Origin: a virus | Lineage: Duplodnaviria; Heunggongvirae; Uroviricota; Caudoviricetes | Length of the DNA: 22,164 nucleotides | Direction: 5' to 3' (one strand) | Virus record (IMG/VR): IMGVR_UViG_2657245091_000012 | In this document: piece after piece, positions 1-19,345 of the stretch | How the letters are laid out: every line of letters begins with the position of its first letter | Numbering within the stretch: position 1 is the first letter of the stretch | Program-made: the position numbers and the translations under genes | The notes under the pieces: model-generated | The model's input: only the letters and a program-made list of their open reading frames with translations | What the model was told of the DNA's origin: nothing | The model's database searches: none

Positions 1-256
1 CGTCGTTTTTAATCGACTCGACGTACTCGATATCTTCTTTTACCGGGTTAGTGTCGTCGAAACGCAGGTTGCACTGGCCTTTATAGTCCTGGGCGATCCC
101 GAAGTTCAGGCAGATAGATTTCGCATGACCAATATGCAGATAGCCATTCGGTTCCGGCGGGAAACGGGTATGTACTGTGGTGTGCTTACCACTGGCCAGA
201 TCTTCATCGATGATCTGACGAATAAAGTTAGTCGGGCGGGCTTCTGCCTCACTCAT
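1..256 (-). CDS. glnS: glutaminyl-tRNA synthetase, 5' portion (about 85 N-terminal codons; gene continues past the left edge)
   Basis: Reverse-complement translation from the ATG at 254-256 reads [85 protein letters not shown], which I recognise as the enterobacterial GlnRS N-terminus including the class I HIGH motif. Not in the ORF track because it runs off the window edge. Confidence 0.9.
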
Positions 257-524: not shown

Positions 525-812
525 TTATTTTGCTTCCTCAGACTCCGCTAACATGAGGATAGCATGGCGGATCATATTCAATTTGCTGCGATTATGCTTT
601 TTACTTAACGCATCAAGTACTTGGTACTCGTATTCATTGAAACCAACACGAATAGATTTAAAATCACGTGGAGCGTCCTTATCGAGCACTTTGTTGTCTT
701 CTGGTTGCTCACCCGGCACCAAATCAGCCTTACTGGCAAAATCCTCAATTCGGCGTTCAAGATCGGGGTCTTTTACTTCGGGGGCTTTTACCGATTTACG
801 AGGCTTAATCAC
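525..812 (-). CDS. parG: small partition protein, ParG-like (ribbon-helix-helix centromere-binding protein); GTG start
   Basis: 95-aa ORF directly downstream of and overlapping the ParA-like gene by 8 nt; basic N-terminus and C-terminal RHH-like segment (RVGFNEYEYQVLDALSKKHNRSKLNMIRHAI) resembling TP228 ParG; AGGAG about 7 nt upstream of the GTG. Confidence 0.65.
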   Translation of the reverse strand: MIKPRKSVKAPEVKDPDLERRIEDFASKADLVPGEQPEDNKVLDKDAPRDFKSIRVGFNEYEYQVLDALSKKHNRSKLNMIRHAILMLAESEEAK

Positions 813-1446
813 TTAATAACTCCTTAACCAACATCTGGATTTCACCTTTAGCTTTCCCGTTGTCCATCTCAACAACGCCCTTCCCTTCAGCCATGCAATC
901 GCGGTAAACCTTACGATCACGAATGATGGTTTTCAGCAACTTCAGTTGCGGATATTCAGCCAAGTACTCTTTGGCCTCATTGGTTTCATTCACAACCGGA
1001 TTGGATGGGGCCATTGTTAAGACTGCGAACGCCTTAATGCTAGGATTAGGCATCAGGTCCAAAGCCTCTTCAAACACTTCAACAAAGTGTGCCAGCGTGT
1101 CTAAATCTGGTTGAGATGGTCTGAATGGGACCAACACAATATCTGCAGCGGTTATGCCTGTACGCATCTCTTTGCTATCGCGCCCGGCTGTATCAACAAC
1201 TACAAATTCATAACGCTTATCCAGATCGAGAAGTGTTTCTCGAATATTACCAAACTTCTGGACACAATGAATTACAGGAGAAACCTCTGCCGTGTTACGG
1301 TCAGCTGCCCAGCGGGCAGCTGTTCCTTGCTTGTCTGCATCTAGTAACACTACATCCTTATTTGCGCGGGCAAGCTCCGCACAGATGTTTACGCTTGTGG
1401 TTGATTTTCCACAGCCACCTTTTTGGCTGACTACCAATATAATCAT
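805..1446 (-). CDS. parA: ParA/ParF-like small Walker-type partition ATPase (type Ib)
   Basis: Deviant Walker A KGGCGKST near the N-terminus, overall size (about 213 aa) and layout like ParF/Soj. The track's start at 1476 is a TTG; the ATG at 1444-1446 (MIILVVSQKGG...) with GAGGAA upstream is more plausible. Confidence 0.85.
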   Translation of the reverse strand: MIILVVSQKGGCGKSTTSVNICAELARANKDVVLLDADKQGTAARWAADRNTAEVSPVIHCVQKFGNIRETLLDLDKRYEFVVVDTAGRDSKEMRTGITAADIVLVPFRPSQPDLDTLAHFVEVFEEALDLMPNPSIKAFAVLTMAPSNPVVNETNEAKEYLAEYPQLKLLKTIIRDRKVYRDCMAEGKGVVEMDNGKAKGEIQMLVKELLSD

Positions 1447-1690
1447 ATCCGTTCCTCGGTGTGATTTTGGTATCAAAACGGTTCCAGATAAGAGCCTTTT
1501 TGATGCGGGACAGGCTCTATAATGGAGTCATTAATGTTTGGCAAAGTATAACATCAATCAGACCAAATACACCTTATATTGCATCCTATTTAACACGAAA
1601 TCAGCCCAAAATTGGAACCAGATACAAAATAACCCCATAACAGCACCTAAGTGGTACCAAACAAACACTAATTAGACACCATTAAGGCAT

Positions 1691-1713
1691 AAAAAAGGCT
1701 GCAATTTGCAGCC
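1691..1713 (-). terminator. rho-independent terminator downstream of parR (7-bp GC-rich stem ggctgca/tgcagcc, 3-nt loop, followed on the minus strand by a T6 run)
   Basis: Plus strand reads aaaaaa-ggctgca-att-tgcagcc; on the minus strand the hairpin is followed by TTTTTT; sits about 20 nt past the parR stop. Confidence 0.55.
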
Positions 1714-1733
1714 TTAAACCAGCACATCTTCTG

Positions 1734-2072
1734 TCAATCAGGTAGAGAGTCAGCTAGATTGCGCGCCGACGCGCTTTTGGCTACAAATTGCTCCTTCACT
1801 GGCTCAATGGAGGCAGGGCGCTCCTCAACCGCAGCTGGTAGTTCCAGGAAGGATGCCAGCATTTTTCGGATCAGCTCCGGGTTATTGTCTTCGGTCAGCA
1901 GGGAAGCCAGTAATCCTGGAAGCCTGCTATCGACTTCTCCCAGCGCAAGCCCTGCCAACAATGCAGTTCTTGCCATATCGCTATGTTTTTTTATCTTCTC
2001 GCTCGCCGCCTTTTCATTGGCATAAGCCTCTGGGCGAAGATAAATCATCACTTTCTTACGTTCCTGAGACAT
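1734..2072 (-). CDS. parR: ParR-like centromere-binding adaptor of a type II (ParMRC) partition system
   Basis: Segment ALLAGLALGEVDSRLPGLLASLLTEDNNPELIRKMLASFLE parallels R1 ParR as I recall it; immediately downstream of parM; start probably the second ATG (2072), which has GAGG at good spacing. Confidence 0.7.
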   Translation of the reverse strand: MSQERKKVMIYLRPEAYANEKAASEKIKKHSDMARTALLAGLALGEVDSRLPGLLASLLTEDNNPELIRKMLASFLELPAAVEERPASIEPVKEQFVAKSASARNLADSLPD

Positions 2073-2084
2073 GGACATACCTCG

Positions 2085-3041
2085 TTAACCGATTGCTTTC
2101 AGGCCATGAACAAGAGCAAGTTGCGGGTCATCCGCCACGAAGAAACGGTCATCACGAATATTAACTTGCACGCGAATTGCATCTGCCACCAGCGGTGCGC
2201 CACCACCGATCACCATGACATGCGTATATCCTTTAAAGTCGCCAATCACATCAAGAACGCGGGTACGCAGACGGTCAATGCTTGCGGCAATGGCCTTTTT
2301 CACATCACCAATCGCTGATGGGTCATTGATATTGTCGTTCAGATAATCTTCATCGTGGCGGTTAATAATGAGCTGATCCACATTGTAATTTGACGTTTCG
2401 GTATTGGCCCTTGCAAGTGCTTGCCTTACTTCCCTGGTGACCAAGGATACACCAAGATTCGAATCGCCAAAAACACGGGAAACTGCCGTCATTTGTCCAG
2501 CGACCATTGAAACATCAAGGGTAGTTCCACCCAAATCGACGATAAGAACAGAGTGGGCAGGGTTCAGATTGTCGCACAGGCTAATTCCCGCCGGGATAGA
2601 CTCCGGGCGTACCGTAACTTTCTTAATAGTGAATACATTGCCTTTATTCAGCGTGACGGGGCGCATAAGACTGGCTTTCTTGCGCTCGATGTTATCGAGA
2701 TTGTATTGCGCGTCGTCGTCGTAAAACTCTGCCAGAGGCAGCGTGACCACAATTTCTACTTCCTGCGGCTCAATACCGCTTGTCAGCAGGGCATGGTGAA
2801 CAGCCAGGACGTTAAGCGGGCTGTATTGCCATTCCACATTATTCGTCGGCAGAACATCTGGCGATATCAAGTCGTATGAATACTTTTCGTCGTCAATGAC
2901 ATAGTTAAACGGCTTGCCCGCACCAAATGTTGCTGACCATCCGCGCTTAAAGCTGTTAGGGCTGATGTGAGTGCGAGTTTCCCCGTCGTGCTCCCACAGC
3001 ATTTTGATATTGGTTGAACCATCATCGATAAAAATGCGCAT
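2085..3041 (-). CDS. parM: ParM actin-like partition ATPase (StbA/ParM family)
   Basis: N-terminus MRIFIDDGSTNIKMLW, then ISPNSFKRGW, VHHALLTSG, ESIPAG, LIVDLGGTTLDVS, GDSNLGVSLV and YTHVMVIGGGA closely parallel R1 ParM. The track start at 3065 is a GTG; the ATG at 3041 with upstream GGAG matches the ParM N-terminus. Confidence 0.9.
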   Translation of the reverse strand: MRIFIDDGSTNIKMLWEHDGETRTHISPNSFKRGWSATFGAGKPFNYVIDDEKYSYDLISPDVLPTNNVEWQYSPLNVLAVHHALLTSGIEPQEVEIVVTLPLAEFYDDDAQYNLDNIERKKASLMRPVTLNKGNVFTIKKVTVRPESIPAGISLCDNLNPAHSVLIVDLGGTTLDVSMVAGQMTAVSRVFGDSNLGVSLVTREVRQALARANTETSNYNVDQLIINRHDEDYLNDNINDPSAIGDVKKAIAASIDRLRTRVLDVIGDFKGYTHVMVIGGGAPLVADAIRVQVNIRDDRFFVADDPQLALVHGLKAIG

Positions 3042-3065
3042 CTTCTTGCTCCACTTCTGAGACAC

Positions 3066-3592: not shown

Positions 3593-4398
3593 TGCTTGAT
3601 TCAATAGGTGAAGTTAAAGCCTTCAAAATTCTGTCAGATGCCGGTATCTCTACACCAGAATCTATAACCATAAGCCGGGCAGCTTCTGTAAAAGCCTCAT
3701 CGCTCGCCAGCGCCATACAGGGAATAGTTCACGCCGATAAAACCTATCCTGATTCTGTTTCGGCCTGGACTACTCAATTGCTTGGCTTTTCTGAACAGCT
3801 CAATGAGGCCAGCAAAGCGTCTTCATTACTGGCTGATTCTCTTTCCCCATACACCAAGCCATCAGAGCTGTTACAGATGAAGATTGGCTGGGAATGCTAC
3901 GCAAAAGGTAACGAGCTGACCCCCATACCTGCTTTCGCCCTTGTTGAGGGAATGGGGAATGTTTCCATTCCGCAATCTCTAACGGACGCATTGACGGCGC
4001 TAAAACTTGATGCTCTGAAAACCGCCATGAACGCCATTAACGCAAAAATTGAAGCTGCCGGAAGTGCTGGTGGTGGTGAAAGCGATGGTGGACAGGGTGG
4101 TGCTGGGGGCGCTCAGGCTCCAGTCATTACTCAGGATGAAATTGATGCTTTACGGGAAGCAGTGACAGCCGCCGAAGTTTTACTCTCCGAAATTAACTCA
4201 GCAAGTGAGGGTGTCGTAGCCCTTACAGGTCGCATTAAAACGTCAACCACTCAGGCAACCAAAGGTTTAGAGAACGCTGTCGCCATCACGTTAACTGGTT
4301 CTCTACTGGATAATGCAGTAATGAGTCCGGCAATCAGTTTAATCATGCCACAAGGCGTTATCGATGCGCTCCAAAAGAACACCAAAAAGGAACCATAG
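3592..4398 (+). CDS. hypothetical protein (268 aa), translationally coupled to the PAAR-like gene (TAATG overlap); Ala/Ser-rich with an internal Gly-rich linker
   Basis: ATG at 3592-3594 overlaps the TAA of the PAAR gene in the same frame as track ORF 3493..4398; the longer track start would overlap the PAAR gene. No recognisable catalytic motif. Confidence 0.5.
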   Translation: MLDSIGEVKAFKILSDAGISTPESITISRAASVKASSLASAIQGIVHADKTYPDSVSAWTTQLLGFSEQLNEASKASSLLADSLSPYTKPSELLQMKIGWECYAKGNELTPIPAFALVEGMGNVSIPQSLTDALTALKLDALKTAMNAINAKIEAAGSAGGGESDGGQGGAGGAQAPVITQDEIDALREAVTAAEVLLSEINSASEGVVALTGRIKTSTTQATKGLENAVAITLTGSLLDNAVMSPAISLIMPQGVIDALQKNTKKEP

Positions 4399-4453
4399 AA
4401 ACACCACTTAGGCACACAATAGGATGTAAATTGGTACATGTTTAACACCAAAA

Positions 4454-4927
4454 ATGAACCTGAAGAGGATGGTTTTGAAAAAGATAATTTTGATTGTAAT
4501 TGCGCTTTTAGCCATTTCTGGAATTTACCGAACAACGACGGCAGTTATCGAACACATCAGGTATGTCCGATCGCTTGAAGACTCAAAATCACAACTGGAA
4601 AGCACGAACAACACGCTTTCTACCGCATTACAGTTAAGTGAGAACGCTCGCTCAGCCATGCTGACCGAAAACGAAAGAATTAAAGCACTGGAAAAGGAGT
4701 ACCAGCGCAAAACAGCAGAACTGAATGCCAACCTAATCAAACAACGAGAGGAAAGCCAGAATGAAATCACTCGCCTTGAAAATGCGTTACGCCGTGCTGG
4801 GATTAACGATGTGCGTGTGCCTGATGACGTTATCAGGATGCAGCGGGAACGGGCAAAAGCCATCAACCAGCGTGCCAGTGAAAATTACCGTAGAAGCCAC
4901 CAGCAAGCCGCAGGCAAATCTGATTGA
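4454..4927 (+). CDS. putative i-spanin (Rz-like): N-terminal transmembrane anchor plus coiled-coil periplasmic domain
   Basis: N-terminus MNLKRMVLKKIILIVIALLAISGIY is a signal-anchor-like TM segment; the rest is charged and heptad-like (ENERIKALEKEYQRKTAELNANLIKQREESQNEITRLENALRR). Confidence 0.55.
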   Translation: MNLKRMVLKKIILIVIALLAISGIYRTTTAVIEHIRYVRSLEDSKSQLESTNNTLSTALQLSENARSAMLTENERIKALEKEYQRKTAELNANLIKQREESQNEITRLENALRRAGINDVRVPDDVIRMQRERAKAINQRASENYRRSHQQAAGKSD

Positions 4928-5093
4928 TTACTCCCCTTGTTTAGTGCCAGAGGACACGCCAGTGCTGTTAAACAAGTATCCGACATACGCTGAACAGTTA
5001 TTCAGCACGATCGACGAATGCAACCAACGAAACGCACTGAATAACCAAAGAAACAGGGAGATTTGGGAAGGGAAGGGGGATCAAGGCTCCTGA
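4761..5093 (+). CDS. putative o-spanin (Rz1-like outer-membrane lipoprotein) starting inside the i-spanin gene in another frame
   Basis: Signal peptide with lipobox LSGC (MKSLALKMRYAVLGLTMCVCLMTLSGC); SD gaggaa 7 nt upstream of the ATG; overlaps the 3' end of the Rz-like gene by 167 nt, the classic overlapped spanin architecture. Confidence 0.55.
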   Translation: MKSLALKMRYAVLGLTMCVCLMTLSGCSGNGQKPSTSVPVKITVEATSKPQANLIDYSPCLVPEDTPVLLNKYPTYAEQLFSTIDECNQRNALNNQRNREIWEGKGDQGS

Positions 5094-5539
5094 AGCCAGA
5101 TGTCCTGGCTGTCAGCTTCTTCGAAACCGTGACAGACGTTAAAGTCACTCAAGCGATACTGACGCTGACGGCCTCTATTTCGCTCATGCCAATGCATATA
5201 TCCACCAGCAAATGCCAGCGGACAATCACTATAGTCTATGTAACCAATACCATTCCCCAAACGTGCTTCGCGCGCACCGGCTTTCCAGGACAGTAGAAAA
5301 GAGTCACGATCCGCCAGCATAACAACAAAATCGTCCGGATCTCCGATACAGTGAAGAATACCTGCCTTACATAACTGCTTGAGCGCTTTGGACTGGCTCA
5401 GGATGTCTTCTCCGTAATACTGAAAACAATCATCAACAACAGCGGGATAGCCTGCCGGGGGATTCAGGCTGGTTGGTATAGCTGACGCGATCGACAGCAT
5501 TAAGCGATATTGTGTTTTTGATGGGTTAACGTGGCTCAT
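5081..5539 (-). CDS. hypothetical protein (152 aa), second gene of a minus-strand two-gene unit
   Basis: ORF with ATG at 5537-5539 and AAGGGA SD; no recognisable motif; 3' end overlaps the o-spanin 3' end convergently. Confidence 0.4.
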   Translation of the reverse strand: MSHVNPSKTQYRLMLSIASAIPTSLNPPAGYPAVVDDCFQYYGEDILSQSKALKQLCKAGILHCIGDPDDFVVMLADRDSFLLSWKAGAREARLGNGIGYIDYSDCPLAFAGGYMHWHERNRGRQRQYRLSDFNVCHGFEEADSQDIWLQEP

Positions 5540-5555
5540 TTTGTCCCTTGTTTAC

Positions 5556-5948
5556 TCATTGTCGCCATGCGTTTTTTAACTCAGGAATATCTGCCATTTC
5601 AATTAACTTGCGAAGTCCAGCACTGACTTTCCCATTACCAACCATAGCAAGCCAATCTCTTACTGCTTTCGGCATGTAGAGCGTTGCTGTTACCGGCTCT
5701 TCAACCCTGGCAGGACATCCGCATACAGGCCATTTAATTGATTCCATAACTTCGGAGGCTGGGGTGAGGGCGGGGACATTGAGTATATCTCTACCAGAAA
5801 ACTGGATAACGATCCGTTCAGCTAGCGAGAGTATCTCACTTTCGGCAAGAATTGATGCCAACTGCGCCTCAACAAGAAAGCGACTTGTTGTGTTCAGAGA
5901 GTGGCTCTTAGCGCCATTTTTATACGAAACAAAGATTCGATACGCCAT
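5556..5948 (-). CDS. hypothetical protein (130 aa) with a C-terminal ribbon-helix-helix-like segment (possible DNA-binding regulator)
   Basis: C-terminal TATLYMPKAVRDWLAMVGNGKVSAGLRKLIEMA fits a beta-strand/helix/helix RHH pattern (Arc/MetJ/CopG-like); tightly spaced upstream of the 152-aa ORF. Confidence 0.4.
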   Translation of the reverse strand: MAYRIFVSYKNGAKSHSLNTTSRFLVEAQLASILAESEILSLAERIVIQFSGRDILNVPALTPASEVMESIKWPVCGCPARVEEPVTATLYMPKAVRDWLAMVGNGKVSAGLRKLIEMADIPELKNAWRQ

Positions 5949-6106
5949 AACTCTAATGATTTGTGTTAGAAAACTAAAATTAAATCACATAACAACATGC
6001 GTGTTAATATATTTTATTTTACTAAGCCTATTGACTAAATCACAAAGTATGTATTGTTAGCACGTCAAAAGAACCTTCACGCCGCGCCCGAATTTAGGGC
6101 TTAACC

Positions 6107-12493: not shown

Positions 12494-13201
12494 GTGAGTA
12501 TTTTCAGCAGCGTTGGTAGAACGTTGACCACCGCATTGTCATTTAACACGAAATCATTCACCAGCAACCTCATTAGCGACATTCTTGATAAAGCCATATC
12601 AGGCGGCGGGGTAAGCGGGAATTACAGTAGCGATATTGCCTACGGGAAAAATATTGTTGCTGCCGCTATGCGTATCCGTTACGCCCAGGGGTGGCAGTGG
12701 ACCGTTGAAGTGGATGGTCTGAACGGCTTCGATATGTTCGTGAAGGATATCACCTACAGCAGTGGGAACATCGAGACAGAAAGCAAGGTGATCGGCAGCG
12801 TAGAATTCAGCAAGCCAACCTATGTTAGCGCCGGACCGGTCACTATGACCGTGAGGGATACCGAAGATGGCAAGATCATGGACTGGTTCAAAGAGCGTCG
12901 TTCTCGTGTAACAAATCCTGATGGAACAATAAACCTTCCTCCTGAATATCTGATGAAAATCCGTGTCTACCGGGTGACTCAGGACGGCGGAAAAGAACTG
13001 GAAGAAGAAATGCGCGTATTTCCTACGCAACTTGGGGAAATCACACGCTCACGTGATCAGGTGTCAGAGTTCTTGTCATACCCAATCACTTTCCAGAAAT
13101 ACACATCCGCAGGCTCAGGTGTTTCTGCTTTGGTCAACGGTGCCGCTGGCATGGCTACAAGTGCGTTAAAGGGGGCTGTGAGTGGAGTGATCAAATTCTG
13201 A
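12494..13201 (+). CDS. hypothetical protein (235 aa), GTG start with GGAGG SD
   Basis: ORF in the tail block; no motif recognised. Confidence 0.4.
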   Translation: MSIFSSVGRTLTTALSFNTKSFTSNLISDILDKAISGGGVSGNYSSDIAYGKNIVAAAMRIRYAQGWQWTVEVDGLNGFDMFVKDITYSSGNIETESKVIGSVEFSKPTYVSAGPVTMTVRDTEDGKIMDWFKERRSRVTNPDGTINLPPEYLMKIRVYRVTQDGGKELEEEMRVFPTQLGEITRSRDQVSEFLSYPITFQKYTSAGSGVSALVNGAAGMATSALKGAVSGVIKF

Positions 13202-13290
13202 ATAGCTTTAATTATGTGTGCTGGAGGGTTGCTCATTTCCCGTCAGCACCCACGCCCTCAACGATAGCGGGTAGGGAAGGTAGCGCAATT

Positions 13291-13585
13291 TTGAGGGCAT
13301 TTTTTACATCATCAATTCATCTGTAATGAAGGCATTCTTTACACATTTCAATAATATCAATCAGTTAACACAGTGAATGATAATAAAAAAGCGCAATAAG
13401 AATGCACGATACGCACGATATTGGTTGAGGGCGATTTTTACATAGTCCTTACATATCAATACGTTATATAAAAACACAACTTGCTAATAACAATATACAT
13501 GCAATTAAGATGTAAAAATTGCCCTCAATTGCCGATCGTTAAGGGCAAATTCTACACCTTGAGAGGGGTGTAAAAATTGCCCTTA
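13291..13585. repeat. iteron array downstream of repA (incC-like copy-control repeats), mixed orientation
   Basis: Copies of the GAGGGCA(A/T)TTTTTACA(T/C)C family at 13291-13310 (+), 13425-13444 (+), 13509-13528 (-), 13540-13558 (+, degenerate) and 13566-13585 (-); the last two form a near-palindrome overlapping the repA stop. Confidence 0.6.
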
Positions 13586-14338
13586 AGACTGCTGATAGGT
13601 AAATTTTATCCTGGTAACTTTGCCGCCTTCCGTCACCTCTGAGAAGACTATTTTCATTTTTGTATTTTTTTCAATCTCTGCTACAGCCTTCGTTAAAAAA
13701 CTTCTCTTAAATTCGGCATACCGCTGATAGCTTTTTGGTAACCCATAACGCTCCCGCATCCATTCGACGCCAAGTATGGCAAAGCCGCTTCCATCATCCT
13801 TCCTGTACTGGCATAAGGACTCATAAAGCCGCATAGAATAAGGATTTGTAAGGCGAGATACTTCGGTAAAATTCAGCCTTGTGAATCTCTTATCAAGCAG
13901 AGTAAAAAACGGCATGAGATATGGATTAAGATGAATAATGTAAGTCCCGCGCCGTGGTGAATAGGCATCCTTAATCATCCAAGGATAAGACTCATAACTG
14001 TCTTCTGATTCGGTCGATTCATCAGGGTTATATATCGTAACTTTCTTCTCGCTAAGCCCTGAAATGGCCTTACGAATATCCTTGCTGGCTTCAGCAGAGG
14101 GCAAATTATACATCTCTGCATATTCGTTGACCGTCAACTCACAGGCACCTGAACCAAGAACGCCATCCTTAGAAGCATAGCGAAGTCTTCCCACCACAAT
14201 AAACAACAGTCGCTTTTGGTCGCGAGTCAGGTGATAAGCAGCCTCCGTGATCTCATTGGCTTGTGCCAAACTACGACTAATAGGTGTCGCTGACTCAATC
14301 AGGCTGACGGCTTTTGCTGTTAATTCCGCTCTGTTCAT
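13583..14338 (-). CDS. repA: iteron-binding replication initiator, Rep_3 family, F RepE-like
   Basis: Strong similarity to F RepE as recalled (LTEAAYHLTRDQKR, SAEASKDIR, NPYSMRLYESLCQYRKDDGSGF, PKSYQRY). The track start (14371) is a TTG inside an iteron; the ATG at 14336-14338 (MNRAELTAK...) gives an N-terminus of RepE-like length. Confidence 0.9.
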   Translation of the reverse strand: MNRAELTAKAVSLIESATPISRSLAQANEITEAAYHLTRDQKRLLFIVVGRLRYASKDGVLGSGACELTVNEYAEMYNLPSAEASKDIRKAISGLSEKKVTIYNPDESTESEDSYESYPWMIKDAYSPRRGTYIIHLNPYLMPFFTLLDKRFTRLNFTEVSRLTNPYSMRLYESLCQYRKDDGSGFAILGVEWMRERYGLPKSYQRYAEFKRSFLTKAVAEIEKNTKMKIVFSEVTEGGKVTRIKFTYQQS

Positions 14339-14361
14339 AACCCTGTGTGATCCTTCAAATG

Positions 14362-14622
14362 GTGAGGGCAATTTTTACATCACTTTGAGGGCAATTACTA
14401 CACCTTTTGAGGGCAAATCTTACACCTTTTGAGGGCAAATCTTACACCGATCGTATTTAATTGAGGGCAAATCTTACACCAGCCTCCTCTACAGCCCGCG
14501 CCACTACTGGCTCCAGCGACGCCTAAAAAGGATCTAAAAAGGATTAAAAATGGAAAAAGGTTTATAAAAATACTCTGTGGATATGTGAGTAGCGTCACTT
14601 AAGGTGTAAAAATCACCCTCAA
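14362..14622. repeat. replication origin region: five direct 22-bp-spaced iterons (TTGAGGGCAAATCTTACACC), an AT-rich tract, a DnaA-box-like site and one inverted iteron
   Basis: Iterons at 14362-14381, 14384-14404, 14405-14426, 14427-14448 and 14461-14480; AT-rich tract 14521-14572 with repeated aaaaagga; tgtggatat at 14576-14584 is 8/9 to the DnaA box TGTGGATAA; inverted iteron variant at 14603-14622. Iteron sequence resembles F oriS iterons as recalled. Confidence 0.7.
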
Positions 14623-14726
14623 TAATCGCTTCTCGACCGGCAAAGATCTTCATTCAATCCCCATCGCAAATCACACACTCCCTATCCTCTGGAAAATGAA
14701 CAGATACCTGCTTTTCGGAGGAATAA

Positions 14727-15548
14727 TTGAACATTCCAAAATTCCCATTGCCTTCCCGTCCTGAGACAGAAATTCAGTTTCACGCCCCTACCGTGAAGGA
14801 TGCGCTGAAATATTCTGACCTGAACCCGGCAGAAGATGAGGCAACTACTACAGAGTACCTTAACTCTATGCAGGATGGTGAAATTAACGACAGTGCTAAC
14901 TGGACAGTTCAGGATCGCAGAACTGCTCTTTGGTGGATATTTGTTAATTCGCGCCCTGATGCAGTAATGACCTACTCCTATGAGTGCAGTCACTGCGGTA
15001 ATACGCATCATGCAGATATTAACCTGAGCGACCTGGCCCAAACAGTAGAAATACTCACTGTGCCTCCTTACGTGAAAACCAACGTACCAGTAAATGGAGT
15101 ACCAACTGACTGGATACTTAAACCATTAACCGGGAAAGGCGCGGAACTCCTTGAACGAATGCGAGCGTCACTTCCTGATATGAAAAGCCCCGAATACAGT
15201 GCTGGCGTGGCACGGATGCGAATTGCTGAACTCGCTTTATGCACGGCGCTTGAAGACGATCCGGAGGACTTCACGCAGGCCGCTAACCGACGCTTTGACA
15301 TCATTGAAAGCATGGCGCTTGAAACCGAATTTACTCCGCTTGTGGCTCGCATACAGCTTATGCAAAAAGACCTACGCCACGGCCTGAAAATGTCTATTGA
15401 GAGAGGCACAAGCCGACTGATCCTGCCTCCGCAACATTGCAAAAACGCTAAGGAGGGTGCAGATGTGACAACCACACTGTACGTCCCCTTTCTCAATAGA
15501 GAGTTTATCCCATCAATTAGATCTGAATGGATGGCTAACCATTATTAA
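14727..15548 (+). CDS. hypothetical protein (273 aa), TTG start with GGAGG SD; contains a Cys/His cluster (CSHCGNTHH)
   Basis: ORF immediately upstream of the tape-measure-like gene; possible tail assembly factor by position only. Confidence 0.35.
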   Translation: MNIPKFPLPSRPETEIQFHAPTVKDALKYSDLNPAEDEATTTEYLNSMQDGEINDSANWTVQDRRTALWWIFVNSRPDAVMTYSYECSHCGNTHHADINLSDLAQTVEILTVPPYVKTNVPVNGVPTDWILKPLTGKGAELLERMRASLPDMKSPEYSAGVARMRIAELALCTALEDDPEDFTQAANRRFDIIESMALETEFTPLVARIQLMQKDLRHGLKMSIERGTSRLILPPQHCKNAKEGADVTTTLYVPFLNREFIPSIRSEWMANHY

Positions 15549-15562
15549 CAACCTGACTCTAT

Positions 15563-18500
15563 ATGGATATCAGCCCGTTAGCGACGTTGAACAATTACCG
15601 CAATGGCGAGCACTCCATATGTCAAAAGCCCTGGAAGAAAAATACAAAGCTCAAGCTGGGAAACGTTGATCGCGCTGGTAAAAGAGAGGTTATTTTGAAA
15701 GAGAATAAAGACCGTATCGCAATAATTGACGCTATTCAGGAGGCGAGCACAAACGAACTTAAAGCTCTTGCTGAGGTAAAAGACGCCATTCTTTCTGGGG
15801 CAAGCACCATAACTCAACAGGACGAAAGGCAAGGCAGAGTTAGCAACAGACTATCACGCAGGCGTAAAGACTACGAGCAAAGTACATCTGATAGCGTTAG
15901 AGATGTCCAAACTAACCCATATAAAAAACGTCTCCCTGCTAAAAAGGAAAGGGCACCGATAAACCAAACCGTGGACCGCTCTATCGTTGCAACGAACACA
16001 CCAGAAAGTGTTCGCTCCGTGCAATCACGTCAGACCATCCGAAAACCGGACGGTTTTATACCGGTAGCTGCTAATTCAGCCCCTCTTGAACCACAATCTC
16101 CCCAAAGTCTAAAAGGCCCGCTGCGGGATAGTAGTGGACGTTTTGTATCCCAAAAAAGCAATGAGGATGTAGCCAGAAAAAAAGAATTGCAGAACGCACG
16201 TAAAGCCGACGCAAAATTACAAGCTGGCTTTCTCAGAAAGCTAGGTTCCATTATGGGGGTAGATGGCAATCAGTCTTCCAGTGAAGAGTCTTTAACAAAT
16301 GCAGCTGGTGTCGGTGCTGGTGGGCCGTTATGGATGGCGGCTCGTGGCATGTACGACATAACTAAAGAGATCACAGGTAAAGCAGAATCTCTTAAAGAAT
16401 GGGTAGAAAAGGGGAAAAAAGAAACATCAACCTCGAAAGCGATATCACCAGTAATTACTTATCCGGCGGCGGTGAATTCTCAAAAAGCAACATCTGCAAA
16501 AGCGTTCAATAACGCTGTTGAGACAAAATCCGCACAAGCAGTAGAAGAGCAAACCAAAATCCTTCAGACCAATGACAACAAAATAATTGATGGTCTGGAA
16601 AATGTTTCTGACGAGATACTTAAGCTTCGGAAATCAGTGTATTCTGGAAATAAGTTCGGCTTAAGTGATCTCTGGAAAAATCGAGCAAGCAGAAGAAATA
16701 AAATCAATATTGGTGATCAGACGGGAAAAAATAAACGGAACAAATCGAAAAGGAAAGGCCGCAATCTTGGAAAAAAAGCACTCTCCGCTGGCGAAAAAGT
16801 TGCTGCCGGTAGCGCTGCGGCTGGCACTGGTGTCGGAGCAGCAAAAGTAGTTAAAAATAAGATCAGCAAACCCAAAGATGTAAGCACTATCAGCGATACA
16901 TCAAAGGGGATTGCAAAGGAAACAAAAAATACTGCTAAGGCCGTGAAGTCAGCTGGTGTTGTGGCTGAAGATGCCACCATTAAAACCGGCGAAGCCATTG
17001 CAAAGAAAAAAACTGAATCTGTAGCCCTCAAAAGTGCTGCAAAAATAGGTGTTAAATCAGCAGCATCCACAGCGGCAAGAGCGGTCCCTATCATCGGTTC
17101 GCTGGCAATGGCTGGATATGACGCCATAGATGGTTACACAGATACAGAGGCGCAAAAGGCAGCCTTTGGTTTAAGTGACGATAATGCTGTATCCGAACAG
17201 CAAAAAACGGCTTACGCAACAGCTAATGTGCTCGATATGGGGGGCTTGGTGTCGGGCGCAACGAACTTGATAGGGAAAGGAATTTCTGCGCTAGGATTTG
17301 AAAGAGCAGGTGAAAAACTTCAGAATTTTGATACCGGAGATATTGCTCGTGGTGTTAACGGCGCGGTAGATATCACCAAATCTGTTTTTGGTAGCCTTAA
17401 GGATACATTTTTATCCACTGACGAAAACACGAAACAAGTAAAAAAAGCTGTTGAAGACGGCACCAAAAAAACTGTCGATGCGATTCATTCTCTAGGTGAA
17501 CAATTACAAGGTGGGCGTAATGGCGAGGATGGAGTTGGTGAGCACGGGTATACTTCTCCAACTGAATTTAGTGCACCTGCCAACAACACCATTGCAGCGG
17601 ATCTGAATATTGGCGGCAGCAACGCTAAAAACCGCAATTACCGAAATAATAATCTCGGCAATCTTGTTTTTGCCAACCAGGAAGGGGCGACGCTGGAATC
17701 GCCAAATGCAAAAGGTGAACAACGTTTTGCTCGATTTAACACGCCTGAAGAAGGGATCAGGGCACTGGCAAACCAGGTTTCCAGCTATTACAACGGCACC
17801 AGTGCCGCAGCGGGATATCAGAAGTTACAGACGGTATCCAGCATCATTTCAAAATGGGCACCGCCAAATGAGAACAATACTAACCAATATATTGATAACG
17901 TCAGTAAATATCTTGGTGTATCGCCTAATGAAAAAATAGATGTCAGCAACCCAGAGGTTATGACGCAATTAGTTCGTGCAATTGCGACGAAAGAAGGCGG
18001 AAATCCGGCAGTTAATAATGAGTTCATTAAGAATGCACTTGGAGCATTTAACACAAACACTGGTCGATGGGAGGGACAATTCTCTGACGAAACATTGGCG
18101 CGGATTAATAAAATTCAGAAAGAAAATGGTGGTCAGCTAATTGCCCGCGATTCGCAATATAGTGTTGGTCGCAAGGTAAAATATGCTAATGGAAAATCTC
18201 CAGCTCATCCAGTTTTGAATGCCGTTCCGACAGCAACACAACAGCCAATTGAGGTTGCACAACATGCCCAGGCAGTCAAAAAGCCACAAAAAACAGGCAA
18301 TCAATCGCAACCGATTAATCCAGAGAATGTTGATGTTAATACTGGCTCGCCATCAAGTCTGCTTGAGAGATTAATCGCTATAAATGAAAGCGGGGTAGGT
18401 AATTTATTTGGAGGTGCGGCTACCAGCCTTGCTGGTACAAGCCTTGGCCTGATTAAGGATTTTGCGTCGGCGACTTCGTTTGGTTCTATATCTTCGCTTT

Positions 18501-19345
18501 CCGAAAAAGCGAAAGGAATGGATCAGGCTCTTACTGAAAAGATATCCAGCTTAACCGGTAAATCTTTTGGATTTCAAAAAGCAAGCCAGGTAACTGATAT
18601 AAGAGACGCTTTACAAAAAAGACCAAAAGCTGAACTCGATATGCCTTCAGTGGATCTTCTCTCCGGTGTTTCTTCGGCAAGTGAGAGTGAAAAAATCTCT
18701 GTAAACTCAAGGGGGATTCCAGTTTATGACAATGGATACAAGGTAATTGATGGTGAAGATAAGGGGGTGCTTGGCTCTTTGTTTGACTCGTCATTAACAG
18801 GTCTGAAACGTATTAGCTCTGCTGTGTTACCTGCAATTGGCGATAACGTTTCACAACTTATTGGTGGGGTAGATGGCACAGGCATTGTTAATGATTTGAT
18901 TTATCAGGCTACTGGGCAGAATTCAACAATTGCCAGGGCTATTAGCCCGCTTACCAGGAGCGCCGGTAGTTGGCTGAATAATGGTATTCAACAAACCGCA
19001 GATAGCATTAGAGGTATATCAAACGAAGCCAATAATGCCATATTTGGCTCTGCGTCAGCCGTGCAAGAACCTTTTCTTGCTTTGCCACCACAGCTTCCTA
19101 CTGTAACAGATCTCGCACGAAGCGGAATAAGACAACCATTAACTACTGACACTATAAATAACGATCCTGCTATGTTGAAGGCGCTGGATAACATCTGCTC
19201 TATCCTGAACGATCTTCTGAATGTGAACAAGAACAATACAAAAGGCGATCCGGATAAGGTTGTCAAAACATCGCAGCCGCAACCGCGACCACGTGCTAGC
19301 ACAACTATTAATGACCCGTCGCTGGATGCTCTGCTTGAGGATTAA
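15563..19345 (+). CDS. large tail protein, putative tape measure protein (1260 aa)
   Basis: Very long ORF with a Lys-rich coiled-coil-like N-terminal third, Ala/Gly-rich hydrophobic segments (AGSAAAGTGVGAAKVV, AVPIIGSLAMAG), and position between tube-like and baseplate-like genes; contains a conserved-looking internal segment (NNNLGNLVFANQEGATLESPNAKGEQRFARFNTPEEGIRALANQV) of unknown function. Confidence 0.5.
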   Translation: MDISPLATLNNYRNGEHSICQKPWKKNTKLKLGNVDRAGKREVILKENKDRIAIIDAIQEASTNELKALAEVKDAILSGASTITQQDERQGRVSNRLSRRRKDYEQSTSDSVRDVQTNPYKKRLPAKKERAPINQTVDRSIVATNTPESVRSVQSRQTIRKPDGFIPVAANSAPLEPQSPQSLKGPLRDSSGRFVSQKSNEDVARKKELQNARKADAKLQAGFLRKLGSIMGVDGNQSSSEESLTNAAGVGAGGPLWMAARGMYDITKEITGKAESLKEWVEKGKKETSTSKAISPVITYPAAVNSQKATSAKAFNNAVETKSAQAVEEQTKILQTNDNKIIDGLENVSDEILKLRKSVYSGNKFGLSDLWKNRASRRNKINIGDQTGKNKRNKSKRKGRNLGKKALSAGEKVAAGSAAAGTGVGAAKVVKNKISKPKDVSTISDTSKGIAKETKNTAKAVKSAGVVAEDATIKTGEAIAKKKTESVALKSAAKIGVKSAASTAARAVPIIGSLAMAGYDAIDGYTDTEAQKAAFGLSDDNAVSEQQKTAYATANVLDMGGLVSGATNLIGKGISALGFERAGEKLQNFDTGDIARGVNGAVDITKSVFGSLKDTFLSTDENTKQVKKAVEDGTKKTVDAIHSLGEQLQGGRNGEDGVGEHGYTSPTEFSAPANNTIAADLNIGGSNAKNRNYRNNNLGNLVFANQEGATLESPNAKGEQRFARFNTPEEGIRALANQVSSYYNGTSAAAGYQKLQTVSSIISKWAPPNENNTNQYIDNVSKYLGVSPNEKIDVSNPEVMTQLVRAIATKEGGNPAVNNEFIKNALGAFNTNTGRWEGQFSDETLARINKIQKENGGQLIARDSQYSVGRKVKYANGKSPAHPVLNAVPTATQQPIEVAQHAQAVKKPQKTGNQSQPINPENVDVNTGSPSSLLERLIAINESGVGNLFGGAATSLAGTSLGLIKDFASATSFGSISSLSEKAKGMDQALTEKISSLTGKSFGFQKASQVTDIRDALQKRPKAELDMPSVDLLSGVSSASESEKISVNSRGIPVYDNGYKVIDGEDKGVLGSLFDSSLTGLKRISSAVLPAIGDNVSQLIGGVDGTGIVNDLIYQATGQNSTIARAISPLTRSAGSWLNNGIQQTADSIRGISNEANNAIFGSASAVQEPFLALPPQLPTVTDLARSGIRQPLTTDTINNDPAMLKALDNICSILNDLLNVNKNNTKGDPDKVVKTSQPQPRPRASTTINDPSLDALLED

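What the first reader, a model, noticed from the sequence alone, without database searches (positions are those of the whole stretch)
13291..14622. RepE-like replicon sits inside the tail gene block, with two iteron subclasses
repA and its iteron arrays lie between the tube-like genes and the tape-measure-like gene on the opposite strand, an unusual place for a plasmid origin. The upstream array is five nearly identical 22-bp-spaced TTGAGGGCAAATCTTACACC repeats next to an AT-rich tract and a DnaA-box-like site. The downstream array uses a variant (GAGGGCA-TTTTTACATC type) in mixed orientation, and one copy of that variant sits just upstream of the repA start (14362-14381), consistent with origin, copy-control and autorepression functions being split as in F oriS/incC.
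Basis: partly seen in the sequence, partly recalled or inferred. Interest (0 to 1): 0.55.

Follow-up and report, generated by a model that had tools for sequence, protein, structure and literature searches.

The report
Phage D6 plasmid replicon in tail operon
This is the already annotated plasmid-maintenance replicon of the P1-like phage-plasmid D6: an F-plasmid RepE-type initiator gene flanked by its repeated binding sites, sitting as a 1.5-kb module between two tail genes that are directly adjacent in phage P1.

Summary
The window is a D6-like phage-plasmid (99.5% identical to Escherichia phage D6). Window 13583-14338 (-) is D6 orf42, a Rep_3 initiator 47-51% identical to F RepE. Twelve matches to the 19-nt iteron consensus lie within 13292-14621 and nowhere else in 22 kb (0.05 expected); a 13th, degenerate copy is at 13326.

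Five tandem iterons, a GC spacer, an AT-rich tract and a DnaA box are collinear with F ori2. Six more iterons lie downstream of rep, as in F incC and P1 incA. Across five D6-like lineages the iterons are 75-100% invariant and the downstream spacers 22%; rep pN/pS is 0.00-0.02.

- Spacing is 23/22/22/32, and only three copies are identical.
- The two subclasses are not a conserved split.
- There is no F-type inverted-repeat operator. The last iteron lies 23 bp from the ATG, so autorepression is probably P1-like, with the promoter inside the iterons.

The location is unusual: tub and pmgB are 14-15 bp apart in P1 and JK004. A candidate late promoter sits upstream of pmgB.

The replicon is already annotated and published as iteron-associated, so this is ordinary, with several incremental side observations.

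The parts
12494..13201 (+). tub (tail tube gene), left neighbour of the replicon insert
   Evidence: D6 annotation orf43, 'similar to P1 gene tub'. In P1 and in Cronobacter phage JK004 this gene is followed after 14-15 bp by pmgB.
13213..13254 (.). Inverted pair of P1-RepA-type (IncY) iteron-like sequences: TATGTGTGCTGGAGGGTTG (13213-13231, +) and CGTGGGTGCTGACGGGAAA (13254-13236, -)
   Evidence: The 15-nt core ATGTGTGCTGGAGGG exactly matches annotated P1 incA/incC iterons. In the D6 genome, hits with up to 4 mismatches are 0.1 expected. The pair is present in L015, L018 and L014, repeated in L007, and deleted in L019/L020. Function unknown.
13291..13310 (-). Downstream iteron d6 (reads GATGTAAAAAATGCCCTCAA on the rep-sense strand)
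   Evidence: 75% invariant columns in 5 lineages. Retained as an orphan in pNCYU-26-73-5.
13326..13345 (-). Downstream iteron d5, degenerate (TGTGTAAAGAATGCCTTCAT)
   Evidence: 85% invariant columns.
13355..13367 (+). Perfect IHF consensus site TATCAATCAGTTA
   Evidence: WATCAANNNNTTR gives 4 hits in 22 kb (1.48 expected), and 2 of them lie within this 112-bp stretch. These are among the few conserved non-iteron columns.
13391..13416 (-). Terminator-like hairpins followed by a T-run, in rep sense; candidate rep terminator
   Evidence: Consensus scan only.
13425..13444 (-). Downstream iteron d4 (TATGTAAAAATCGCCCTCAA)
13454..13466 (+). Second perfect IHF consensus site TATCAATACGTTA
13509..13528 (+). 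Downstream iteron d3, inverted relative to the origin iterons. Its 19-nt core is identical to that of the promoter-proximal iteron
   Evidence: (I7, 19/19). The replicon swap in pNCYU-26-73-5 has its left breakpoint just after this copy.
13539..13558 (-). Downstream iteron d2 (GGTGTAGAATTTGCCCTTAA)
13567..13586 (+). Downstream iteron d1, inverted, overlapping the rep stop codon (TAA at 13583-13585)
   Evidence: The same stop-codon overlap occurs in relatives L010 and L013. In P1 the first incA iteron abuts the repA stop.
13583..14338 (-). rep (D6 orf42): 251-aa RepE-family initiator with two winged-helix domains
   Evidence: Pfam Rep3_N 2.9e-29 and Rep3_C 9e-16. F RepE structures 1rep/7uxy at E ~1e-73. 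NCBIfam RepE equivalog 280.6 bits, below the 342 cut-off. pN/pS 0.00-0.02.
14095..14114 (-). Iteron-like site inside rep (codons EMYNLPS; GAGATGTATAATTTGCCCTC)
   Evidence: All synonymous positions are kept in L010, where gene-wide codon identity among identical residues is 0.39, and this is the longest identical-codon run in the gene. L013 carries a CTG variant that matches its own iterons. The site is lost in L007.
14339..14361 (-). 23-nt leader with the ribosome-binding region; no room for an F-type operator
   Evidence: 96% invariant. Comparably short leaders occur in L007 and L010.
14362..14480 (-). Origin iteron array: five direct 20-nt copies starting at 14362, 14385, 14407, 14429 and 14461. 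The candidate rep promoter (extended -10 TGTAAAAAT) lies inside the first copy
   Evidence: 90-100% invariant against 42% for the spacers between copies. The promoter is only the best weak match. P1's PrepA lies in its iterons in the same way.
14481..14519 (.). GC-rich spacer between the iterons and the AT-rich tract
   Evidence: Same position as in F ori2 and in relatives. 59% invariant.
14520..14575 (.). AT-rich tract with three AAAAAGGWTYTAAAA-like repeats and one GATC; presumed DNA-unwinding element
   Evidence: (family D6). 89% invariant. Aligns with the AT-rich tract of F ori2.
14576..14584 (-). DnaA box ATATCCACA (one mismatch to TTATCCACA)
   Evidence: 100% invariant. Homologous position to the tandem DnaA boxes of F ori2 and of relatives.
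14603..14622 (+). Sixth origin-side iteron, inverted, beyond the DnaA box
   Evidence: 100% invariant in 5 lineages. L010 has three inverted copies in the same place.
14668..14688 (+). Late-promoter-like motif AAATCACACACTCCCTATCCT, 39 nt upstream of the pmgB start
   Evidence: The motif AAATCACA-N7-TANNNT occurs 6 times in the D6 genome against 1.5 expected (0 of 100 simulations reach 6). All six lie 30-52 nt upstream of late-gene starts on the coding strand. It resembles P1 LPsit and LP23. It is retained outside the swapped cassette in pNCYU-26-73-5.
14727..15548 (+). pmgB, right neighbour of the replicon insert
   Evidence: D6 orf41. 39.8% identical to P1 PmgB.
   Evidence: D6 orf40 annotation. 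The P1 sit annotation reads 'putative tail ruler'.

Best explanation
Window 13202-14726 is the low-copy plasmid-prophage replicon of a D6-type phage-plasmid, a class-A theta, iteron-controlled replicon of the F RepE (Rep_3) family.

Inferred mechanism:
- Rep monomers bind the five tandem iterons at 14362-14480.
- Together with host DnaA at the adjacent box, they open the AT-rich tract at 14520-14575 for helicase loading.
- The rep promoter lies within the ATG-proximal iterons, so iteron occupancy also represses rep. This is the P1 oriR logic, not F's inverted-repeat operator.
- The six downstream iterons (13291-13586), with two IHF sites between them, titrate Rep and pair with the origin (handcuffing). 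That would set copy number and determine incompatibility, like F incC and P1 incA.

The module is a mobile cassette. In the D6 lineage it sits between tub and pmgB, which are contiguous in P1. A late-promoter-like motif directly upstream of pmgB probably keeps the downstream tail genes expressed.

Shown: protein family, repeat anatomy, conservation, collinearity with F ori2, and the insert relative to P1. Inferred: binding, promoter position, handcuffing, and the IHF and late-promoter roles.
For: Identity of the element:
- 99.5% identical to phage D6, where the gene is annotated as a replication initiation protein.
- The four D6 annotation tables, which together cover the whole genome, list no other plasmid-type initiator; the only other one is RepL, for lytic replication.

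Protein:
- Rep3_N and Rep3_C domains.
- F RepE is the best solved relative at E ~1e-73, with 47-51% identity.

Repeats:
- 12 consensus hits confined to 13292-14621 against 0.05 expected.
- The same 13 sites, in the same order and orientation, occur in five D6-like lineages at 85-100% DNA identity.

Selection:
- Iterons are 75-100% invariant, the DnaA box 100% and the AT-rich tract 89%. Downstream spacers are 22% invariant.
- rep pN/pS is 0.00-0.02 at pS 0.25-0.44.

Origin and cis-logic:
- The origin is collinear with F ori2 and with relatives whose Rep is 63-78% identical.
- The P1 annotation shows the same logic: promoter inside the iterons, and the second array starting at the stop codon.

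Insert status:
- tub and pmgB are 14-15 bp apart in P1 and JK004.
- Related replicons lie in the canonical P1 slot in L010 and next to ulx/darB in L007.
- One D6-like plasmid carries a p0111-like replicon in the same slot.

Late-promoter motif.

Published statement of a rep gene 'associated with iteron sequences' in the D6-like plasmid pYU39_89: PMC6799933.
Against: - No experiment was available to me showing that this fragment replicates autonomously or that Rep binds the repeats.
- No good sigma-70 promoter match exists upstream of rep. The best is 7.5 on my own lenient scale, and the standard scan finds none, so promoter-in-iteron rests mainly on lack of space.
- The DnaA box alone is not statistically significant.
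- The residue equivalent to RepE R118, whose R118P change makes RepE monomeric (from memory of the RepE54 literature), is Asp here. The dimer/monomer balance may therefore differ from F.
- The downstream array could act only by titration, or be partly vestigial. Four of its copies persist as orphans beside a different replicon.
Confidence: 0.85

Rival explanations
1. Autoregulation works as in F. Rep dimers bind an inverted-repeat operator, and the promoter-proximal variant iteron (14362-14381) is a dedicated operator, distinct in function from the origin iterons.
For: - The Rep is a close RepE relative.
- The ATG-proximal copy is a fixed sequence variant. It is conserved in all five D6-like lineages and is identical in L007, whose Rep is 78% identical.
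- It has weak internal dyad symmetry (GTGATG...CCTCAC, read).
Against: - No inverted repeat of the GGTGTAA/GATGTAA half-site lies between the array and the ATG.
- Only 23 nt separate the last iteron from the ATG, against ~130 bp holding the promoter and the TGTGACAA inverted repeat in F.
- The variant is a complete iteron in tandem register with the others (23-bp spacing).
- Relative L010 has an ordinary GGTGTAAGAT-type copy at that position.
- The RepE R118-equivalent residue is Asp.
Confidence: 0.15
2. The placement is adaptive, not an accident of insertion. Late transcription running out of tub reads antisense through the downstream iterons, rep and the origin. Lytic induction would then shut off or override plasmid-mode replication.
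For: - rep is antisense to the flanking late genes.
- No convincing intrinsic terminator follows tub on the + strand: none was found in the scan, and the hairpin at 13218-13249 is no more stable than shuffles (z = 0.09).
- The arrangement is stable across the >100 plasmid records that hold this replicon, 97 of them covering at least 80% of the 1.5-kb query.
Against: - There are no transcription data.
- The same replicon family works in two other genomic contexts, so the position is not required for function.
- A different replicon occupies the same slot in one plasmid. That fits a permissive recombination site equally well.
Confidence: 0.15
3. The replicon is a non-functional relic, and the prophage is maintained by another replicon.
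For: Relic replication and partition sequences do exist in this element. There is a ParA C-terminal fragment (D6 orf60), there are P1-type iteron-like sequences, and orphan D6-type iterons persist in pNCYU-26-73-5.
Against: - The ORF is intact, with pN/pS 0.00-0.02.
- Iterons, DnaA box and AT-rich tract are conserved far above the neighbouring spacers.
- The D6 annotation lists no other plasmid-type initiator.
- MOB-suite types these plasmids only by this rep cluster, rep_cluster_1704.
Confidence: 0.03

Closest known systems
F plasmid ori2 (oriS)/incB - repE - incC replicon (IncFIA)
   Same: - The initiator is a two-winged-helix Rep_3 protein, 47-51% identical to RepE.
- The origin has the same order of parts: DnaA box, AT-rich tract, GC-richer spacer, then tandem iterons at ~22-bp spacing with one longer gap. 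These parts can be aligned with F.
- The WH1-side half of the iteron is shared (TTGCCCTCA).
- A second iteron array starts at the rep stop codon.
   Different: - There is no inverted-repeat operator or separate promoter region.
- There is one DnaA box rather than two.
- There are five origin iterons plus one inverted copy beyond the DnaA box, rather than four.
- The left half of the iteron is GGTGTAAGAT, not TGTGACAA, and the repeat is 20 nt rather than 19. The binding specificity, and presumably the incompatibility group, therefore differs.
- Downstream copies have mixed orientation, whereas F's five are all inverted.
- The score is below the NCBIfam RepE equivalog cut-off.
- Asp stands at the RepE R118 position.
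P1 oriR (incC) - repA - incA replicon (IncY)
   Same: - Both serve the same biological role, plasmid prophage maintenance in a related phage.
- There are five origin iterons, with the rep promoter embedded in them in P1 and inferred here.
- The second array begins at the stop codon and has mixed orientation.
- A DnaA box lies at the outer edge of the origin.
   Different: - By sequence the initiator groups with F RepE, and P1 RepA was not among its relatives.
- The iteron sequence is different.
- There is one GATC in the AT-rich tract rather than five GATC heptamers.
- The genomic position differs. P1's replicon lies next to parAB and gene 23, whereas this one lies between tub and pmgB.
p0111-type replicon of P1-like phage-plasmids
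   Same: It is an alternative iteron replicon used by the same phage-plasmid supergroup. A p0111-like cassette occupies exactly this tub/pmgB slot in pNCYU-26-73-5.
   Different: - Its Rep is unrelated at BLAST level: 294 aa, E = 3.6 against this Rep.
- Its iterons are ATCGCATATAGTCAACATT.
- Its origin is of the P1 type, rich in GATC.

Membership tests
Iteron-containing theta replicons with a Rep_3 initiator | Initiator with Rep3_N (WH1) and Rep3_C (WH2) domains | tested here: met
   PF01051 at 102.7 bits (cut-off 22.4) and PF21205 at 58.3 bits (cut-off 21.1).
Iteron-containing theta replicons with a Rep_3 initiator | Tandem, helically phased ~20-bp direct repeats next to the rep gene | tested here: met
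   Five copies at 14362-14480 with spacing 23/22/22/32. There are 12 consensus hits against 0.05 expected.
Iteron-containing theta replicons with a Rep_3 initiator | AT-rich unwinding tract and DnaA box adjacent to the iterons | tested here: met
   14520-14575 and 14576-14584. They are conserved (89% and 100% invariant) and align with F ori2. The box alone is not statistically significant.
Iteron-containing theta replicons with a Rep_3 initiator | Autonomous replication of the rep-plus-origin fragment, and Rep binding to the iterons | not testable with these tools
   This needs mini-replicon cloning and EMSA or footprinting.
F RepE / IncFIA replicon (strict) | RepE equivalog-level sequence similarity | tested here: not met
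   NCBIfam NF010305 scores 280.6 bits, below the 342 cut-off. Identity to F RepE is 47-51%.
F RepE / IncFIA replicon (strict) | Iteron TGTGACAAATTGCCCTCAG, which defines specificity and incompatibility | tested here: not met
   Only the TTGCCCTCA half is shared. The other half is GGTGTAAGAT, and the repeat is one base longer.
F RepE / IncFIA replicon (strict) | Inverted-repeat operator of half-iterons overlapping the repE promoter | tested here: not met
   Only 23 nt lie between the last iteron and the ATG, with no inverted half-site repeat. F has AGTGTGACAATCTAAAAACTTGTCACACT.
F RepE / IncFIA replicon (strict) | Second iteron array (incC) downstream of rep | tested here: met
   Six copies at 13291-13586, the first overlapping the stop codon. 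Orientation is mixed, whereas in F all are inverted.
P1 oriR/RepA (IncY) replicon | 19-bp iterons GATGTGTGCTGGAGGGAAA flanking repA, and five GATC heptamers in the origin | tested here: not met
   The functional arrays use a different repeat, and there is one GATC in the AT-rich tract. Only two P1-type iteron-like sequences are present, at 13213-13254, outside the arrays.
P1 oriR/RepA (IncY) replicon | rep promoter embedded in the origin iterons (autorepression by iteron binding) | tested here: inconclusive
   Lack of space forces the promoter into the iterons. The best candidate is only a weak extended -10, TGTAAAAAT, at 14371-14379. The transcription start is unknown.

The most novel reading that the evidence does not exclude
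The replicon cassette carries cross-specific incompatibility determinants as weapons or relics of competition between phage-plasmids.
- The conserved inverted pair of P1-RepA-type iterons at 13213-13254 would bind the initiator of a co-resident IncY P1-like phage-plasmid and destabilise it. The pair also occurs in diverged D6-like lineages and many times in L007.
- Conversely, the orphan D6-type iterons kept in pNCYU-26-73-5 would do the same to D6-type replicons.
- The antisense position inside the late tail operon could additionally couple lytic transcription to shut-off of plasmid-mode replication.
Probability: 0.12. Interest if true: 0.6.

Novelty: already known. Interest (0 to 1): 0.27.

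Why it matters
D6-like phage-plasmids are widespread in E. coli, Shigella and Salmonella: 111 PLSDB plasmid records hold this replicon. A 2025 preprint notes that their replicon is missing from common plasmid-typing databases (10.1101/2025.09.12.675607). A precise map of rep, the iterons, the DnaA box and the cassette boundaries gives a typing marker and a minimal-replicon design.

The comparison with P1 shows that replicon cassettes move between several slots in this phage supergroup, including the middle of a late tail operon. None of this changes the known picture of iteron replicons.

Tried and rejected
- Papers not held: Gilcrease & Casjens 2018 (the D6 genome paper) and Lobocka 2004 (the P1 genome paper) could not be read. 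I cannot say how much of the iteron anatomy is already described there.
- rep promoter: the standard sigma-70 scan found no promoter upstream of rep. My lenient scan gave only weak candidates.
- Terminator after tub: none was found on the + strand, and the hairpin at 13218-13249 is no more stable than shuffles (z = 0.09).
- Rfam: only one sub-threshold chance hit, so there is no evidence for a known antisense or control RNA.
- Left boundary: a BLAST of 13196-13295 against phages found nothing beyond D6 itself, so the P1 similarity there is limited to the iteron-sized motif.
- The idea that two iteron subclasses map to distinct functions was rejected after comparison across lineages.
- The idea that the alternative Rep in pNCYU-26-73-5 is a diverged copy of this Rep was rejected (BLASTP E = 3.6).
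- The DnaA box is not significant from its count alone. I accept it only because of its conservation and its alignment with F.
Full report
**What the window is**

Window 13200-14700 is 99.5% identical to Escherichia phage D6 (NC_050154), a P1-related plasmid prophage. It is 100% identical to an E. coli O45:H2 plasmid. In all, 111 PLSDB plasmids from Escherichia, Salmonella and Shigella hold this segment. Most are ~90 kb and non-mobilizable.

The D6 record annotates these genes:
- the minus-strand ORF at window 13583-14338 as orf42, 'replication initiation protein, pfam01051';
- the gene to its left (12494-13201) as tub;
- the genes to its right as pmgB (14727-15548) and sit (15563-19345).

[quoted passage not shown] The object is therefore known and annotated. 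The D6 genome paper itself was not available to me.

**Checking the observation**

The consensus TGAGGGCAAWTYTTACAYC with up to three mismatches hits 12 times, all between 13292 and 14621. Shuffles give 0.05. A 13th, degenerate copy lies at 13326.

Read in the rep-sense direction, the order of parts is:
- an inverted iteron (14622-14603);
- 18 bp of spacer;
- a DnaA box, ATATCCACA (14584-14576);
- a 56-bp AT-rich tract with three AAAAAGGWT-type repeats and one GATC;
- a 39-bp GC-rich spacer;
- five direct 20-nt iterons (GGTGTAAGATTTGCCCTCAA three times, then GGTGTAGTAATTGCCCTCAA, then GATGTAAAAATTGCCCTCAC), spaced 32/22/22/23;
- a 23-nt leader;
- rep;
- six more iterons, the first overlapping the TAA stop, with orientations inverted, direct, inverted, direct, direct, direct.

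It is off in the count of 'nearly identical' copies and in the spacing. It also missed the inverted copy's position beyond the DnaA box and an iteron-like site inside rep.

**The protein**

Rep carries both Rep_3 winged-helix domains. Its best solved relative is F RepE at E ~1e-73, with 47-51% identity. It falls short of the NCBIfam RepE equivalog cut-off, at 280.6 against 342 bits.

In PLSDB, Rep proteins at least 95% identical to it number 108 records, close to the 111 records that hold the segment at DNA level. The next relatives are IncFIA-type RepE at ~50% identity.

**Evidence of function from comparison**

Five D6-like lineages, including E. fergusonii and E. marmotae plasmids at 85-91% DNA identity, keep all 13 sites in the same order and orientation. 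The share of invariant alignment columns is:

| Region | Invariant columns |
|---|---|
| Individual iterons | 75-100% |
| DnaA box | 100% |
| AT-rich tract | 89% |
| Leader | 96% |
| Spacers between origin iterons | 42% |
| Non-iteron DNA downstream of rep | 22% |

rep itself has pN/pS of 0.00-0.02 at pS 0.25-0.44.

More distant relatives, with Rep 78%, 71% and 63% identical, were recovered from metagenome contigs. They show the same plan. Their DnaA-box, AT-rich-tract and spacer segments can be laid directly over F ori2 (TTATCCACTTATCCAC-gggatatttttata...). That is why I accept the single DnaA box, although its count in the window is not significant.

The D6 annotation lists no other plasmid-type initiator, only RepL for lytic replication.

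**How it most likely works**

The F-like origin and the RepE-like protein support the standard iteron mechanism. This step is inferred from the family and not shown here:
- Rep monomers bind the five iterons.
- With DnaA they open the AT-rich tract.
- The downstream array titrates Rep and pairs with the origin to limit copy number.

F has ~130 bp between its last iteron and repE. That stretch holds the promoter and an inverted repeat of the TGTGACAA half-iteron. Here, as in L007 and L010, the last iteron ends about 23 nt from the ATG, and no half-site inverted repeat exists.

The promoter must therefore overlap the ATG-proximal iterons. The P1 record annotates PrepA in just this way, inside the incC iterons, and it also shows incA abutting the repA stop codon.

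The only candidate promoter I can point to is a weak one: an extended -10, TGTAAAAAT, inside iteron 14362-14381, with TAGTAA 18 bp upstream. This would explain why those two copies are fixed sequence variants. It remains a guess.

The 'two subclasses' do not hold up as functional classes. The central bases of the downstream copies switch between AAGAAT, AAAAAT, AGAAAT and AGGATT among lineages.

**The location**

In P1, tub and pmgB are separated by 14 bp inside the LPsit late operon. Cronobacter phage JK004 has the same junction with a 15-bp gap. The D6 lineage has 1,525 bp there, so the replicon is an insert relative to those phages.

The same replicon family sits elsewhere in other members of the supergroup:
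- In L010 it lies between upfC/upfB homologues and genes 23-22-21, which is the canonical P1 replicon slot.
- In L007 it lies beside ulx and darB homologues.

One D6-like plasmid, pNCYU-26-73-5, has a different cassette in exactly the tub/pmgB slot:
- It encodes a 294-aa Rep unrelated to this one by BLAST.
- Its DNA is 77% identical to the p0111 replicon of P1-like plasmids.
- It has its own ATCGCATATAGTCAACATT iterons and a P1-style, GATC-rich origin.
- It keeps four orphan D6-type iterons and both IHF sites.

The swapped segment corresponds to about window 13529-14665.

Just outside it, at 14668-14688, lies the motif AAATCACACACTCCCTATCCT. The pattern AAATCACA-N7-TANNNT, allowing up to 1 mismatch in the octamer, occurs six times in the D6 genome against 1.5 expected, and 0 of 100 simulations reach six. 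Every copy lies 30-52 nt upstream of a P1-late-gene homologue on its coding strand: 23, pmgB, lydA, ddrB, prt and darB. The motif resembles P1 LPsit (AAATGACTA-N4-TAGAAT) and LP23, and D6 encodes an Lpa homologue.

So in D6 the replicon lies between two late transcription units rather than interrupting one. No convincing terminator follows tub. Whether late transcripts run antisense into the replicon is open.

**Other things seen**

1. Immediately after the tub stop codon there is an inverted pair of sequences matching the P1 RepA iteron. TATGTGTGCTGGAGGGTTG and CGTGGGTGCTGACGGGAAA compare with the P1 consensus GATGTGTGCTGGAGGGAAA, and the 15-nt core is exact. The pair persists in diverged lineages (L015, where both arms have up to 3 mismatches, and L018) and in L014. 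It recurs many times around the rep of L007, and it is deleted in L019/L020. It may be a relic of recombination with a P1-type replicon, or a cross-incompatibility element. I could not decide.
2. Two perfect IHF consensus sites lie between the downstream iterons, and they are conserved.
3. The intragenic iteron-like site keeps all synonymous positions in L010 and tracks L013's own iteron variant, but it is lost in L007.
4. The residue aligned with RepE R118 is Asp or Glu in the five D6-like lineages, Asp in L007, and Arg or Lys in L010 and L013.

**Verdict**

The finding is real and broadly well read, but it describes an already annotated replicon of a known kind. The corrections to the F analogy and the side observations are incremental. 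They would need simple wet-lab tests to become more than annotation.

Noticed in passing
window 13213-13254: An inverted pair of P1-RepA-type (IncY) iteron-like sequences lies directly after the tub stop codon, at the edge of the D6-type replicon. The 15-nt core ATGTGTGCTGGAGGG exactly matches annotated P1 iterons. The pair is present in several D6-like lineages and in many copies around the related rep in L007. It is absent in L019/L020. It could be a relic or a cross-incompatibility element.
   Followed up: partly
window 13355-13367 and 13454-13466: Two perfect IHF consensus sites (WATCAANNNNTTR) lie between the downstream iterons. They are 2 of only 4 in the 22-kb window, and they are among the few conserved non-iteron positions there.
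   Followed up: partly
window 14095-14114 (inside rep): An iteron-like sequence is encoded by codons EMYNLPS. Its synonymous positions are fully conserved in a relative with 72% identical Rep, and this is the longest identical-codon run in the gene. Another relative has lost the site.
   Followed up: partly
L014 (CP042620.1, pNCYU-26-73-5) 3998-5832; corresponds to window 13202-14726: A D6-like plasmid carries a different, p0111-like iteron replicon in the same tub/pmgB slot, with a 294-aa Rep and a GATC-rich P1-type origin. It still keeps four orphan D6-type iterons and both IHF sites.
   Followed up: partly
window 14668-14688 and 6037-6057; D6 record 54144, 45511, 31531, 27747, 25241, 19191 (minus strand): The candidate D6 late-promoter motif AAATCACA-N7-TANNNT occurs six times in the D6 genome (1.5 expected). 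Each copy lies 30-52 nt upstream of a late-gene homologue, including pmgB and gene 23.
   Followed up: yes
L010 6001-6759 and L007 6001-6756: Replicons of the same family (Rep 71% and 78% identical) sit in other positions of distant P1/D6-supergroup elements. One is in the canonical P1 slot between upfB and gene 23, and the other is next to ulx/darB homologues.
   Followed up: partly
window 805-3065 (-): According to the D6 annotation, a fragment similar to the C-terminal third of P1 ParA (orf60) lies next to a StbA-type partition operon (orf58/59). This suggests that a P1-type partition module was replaced at the P1-equivalent position.
   Followed up: no
window 1-254 (-): By the D6 annotation, the window starts inside a phage-encoded glutaminyl-tRNA synthetase gene (orf62).
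   Followed up: no
window rep codon 124 (about 13967-13969): The residue aligned with F RepE R118, the site of the monomerising R118P change, is Asp or Glu in the five D6-like lineages and Asp in L007. It is Arg or Lys in two more distant relatives.
   Followed up: no
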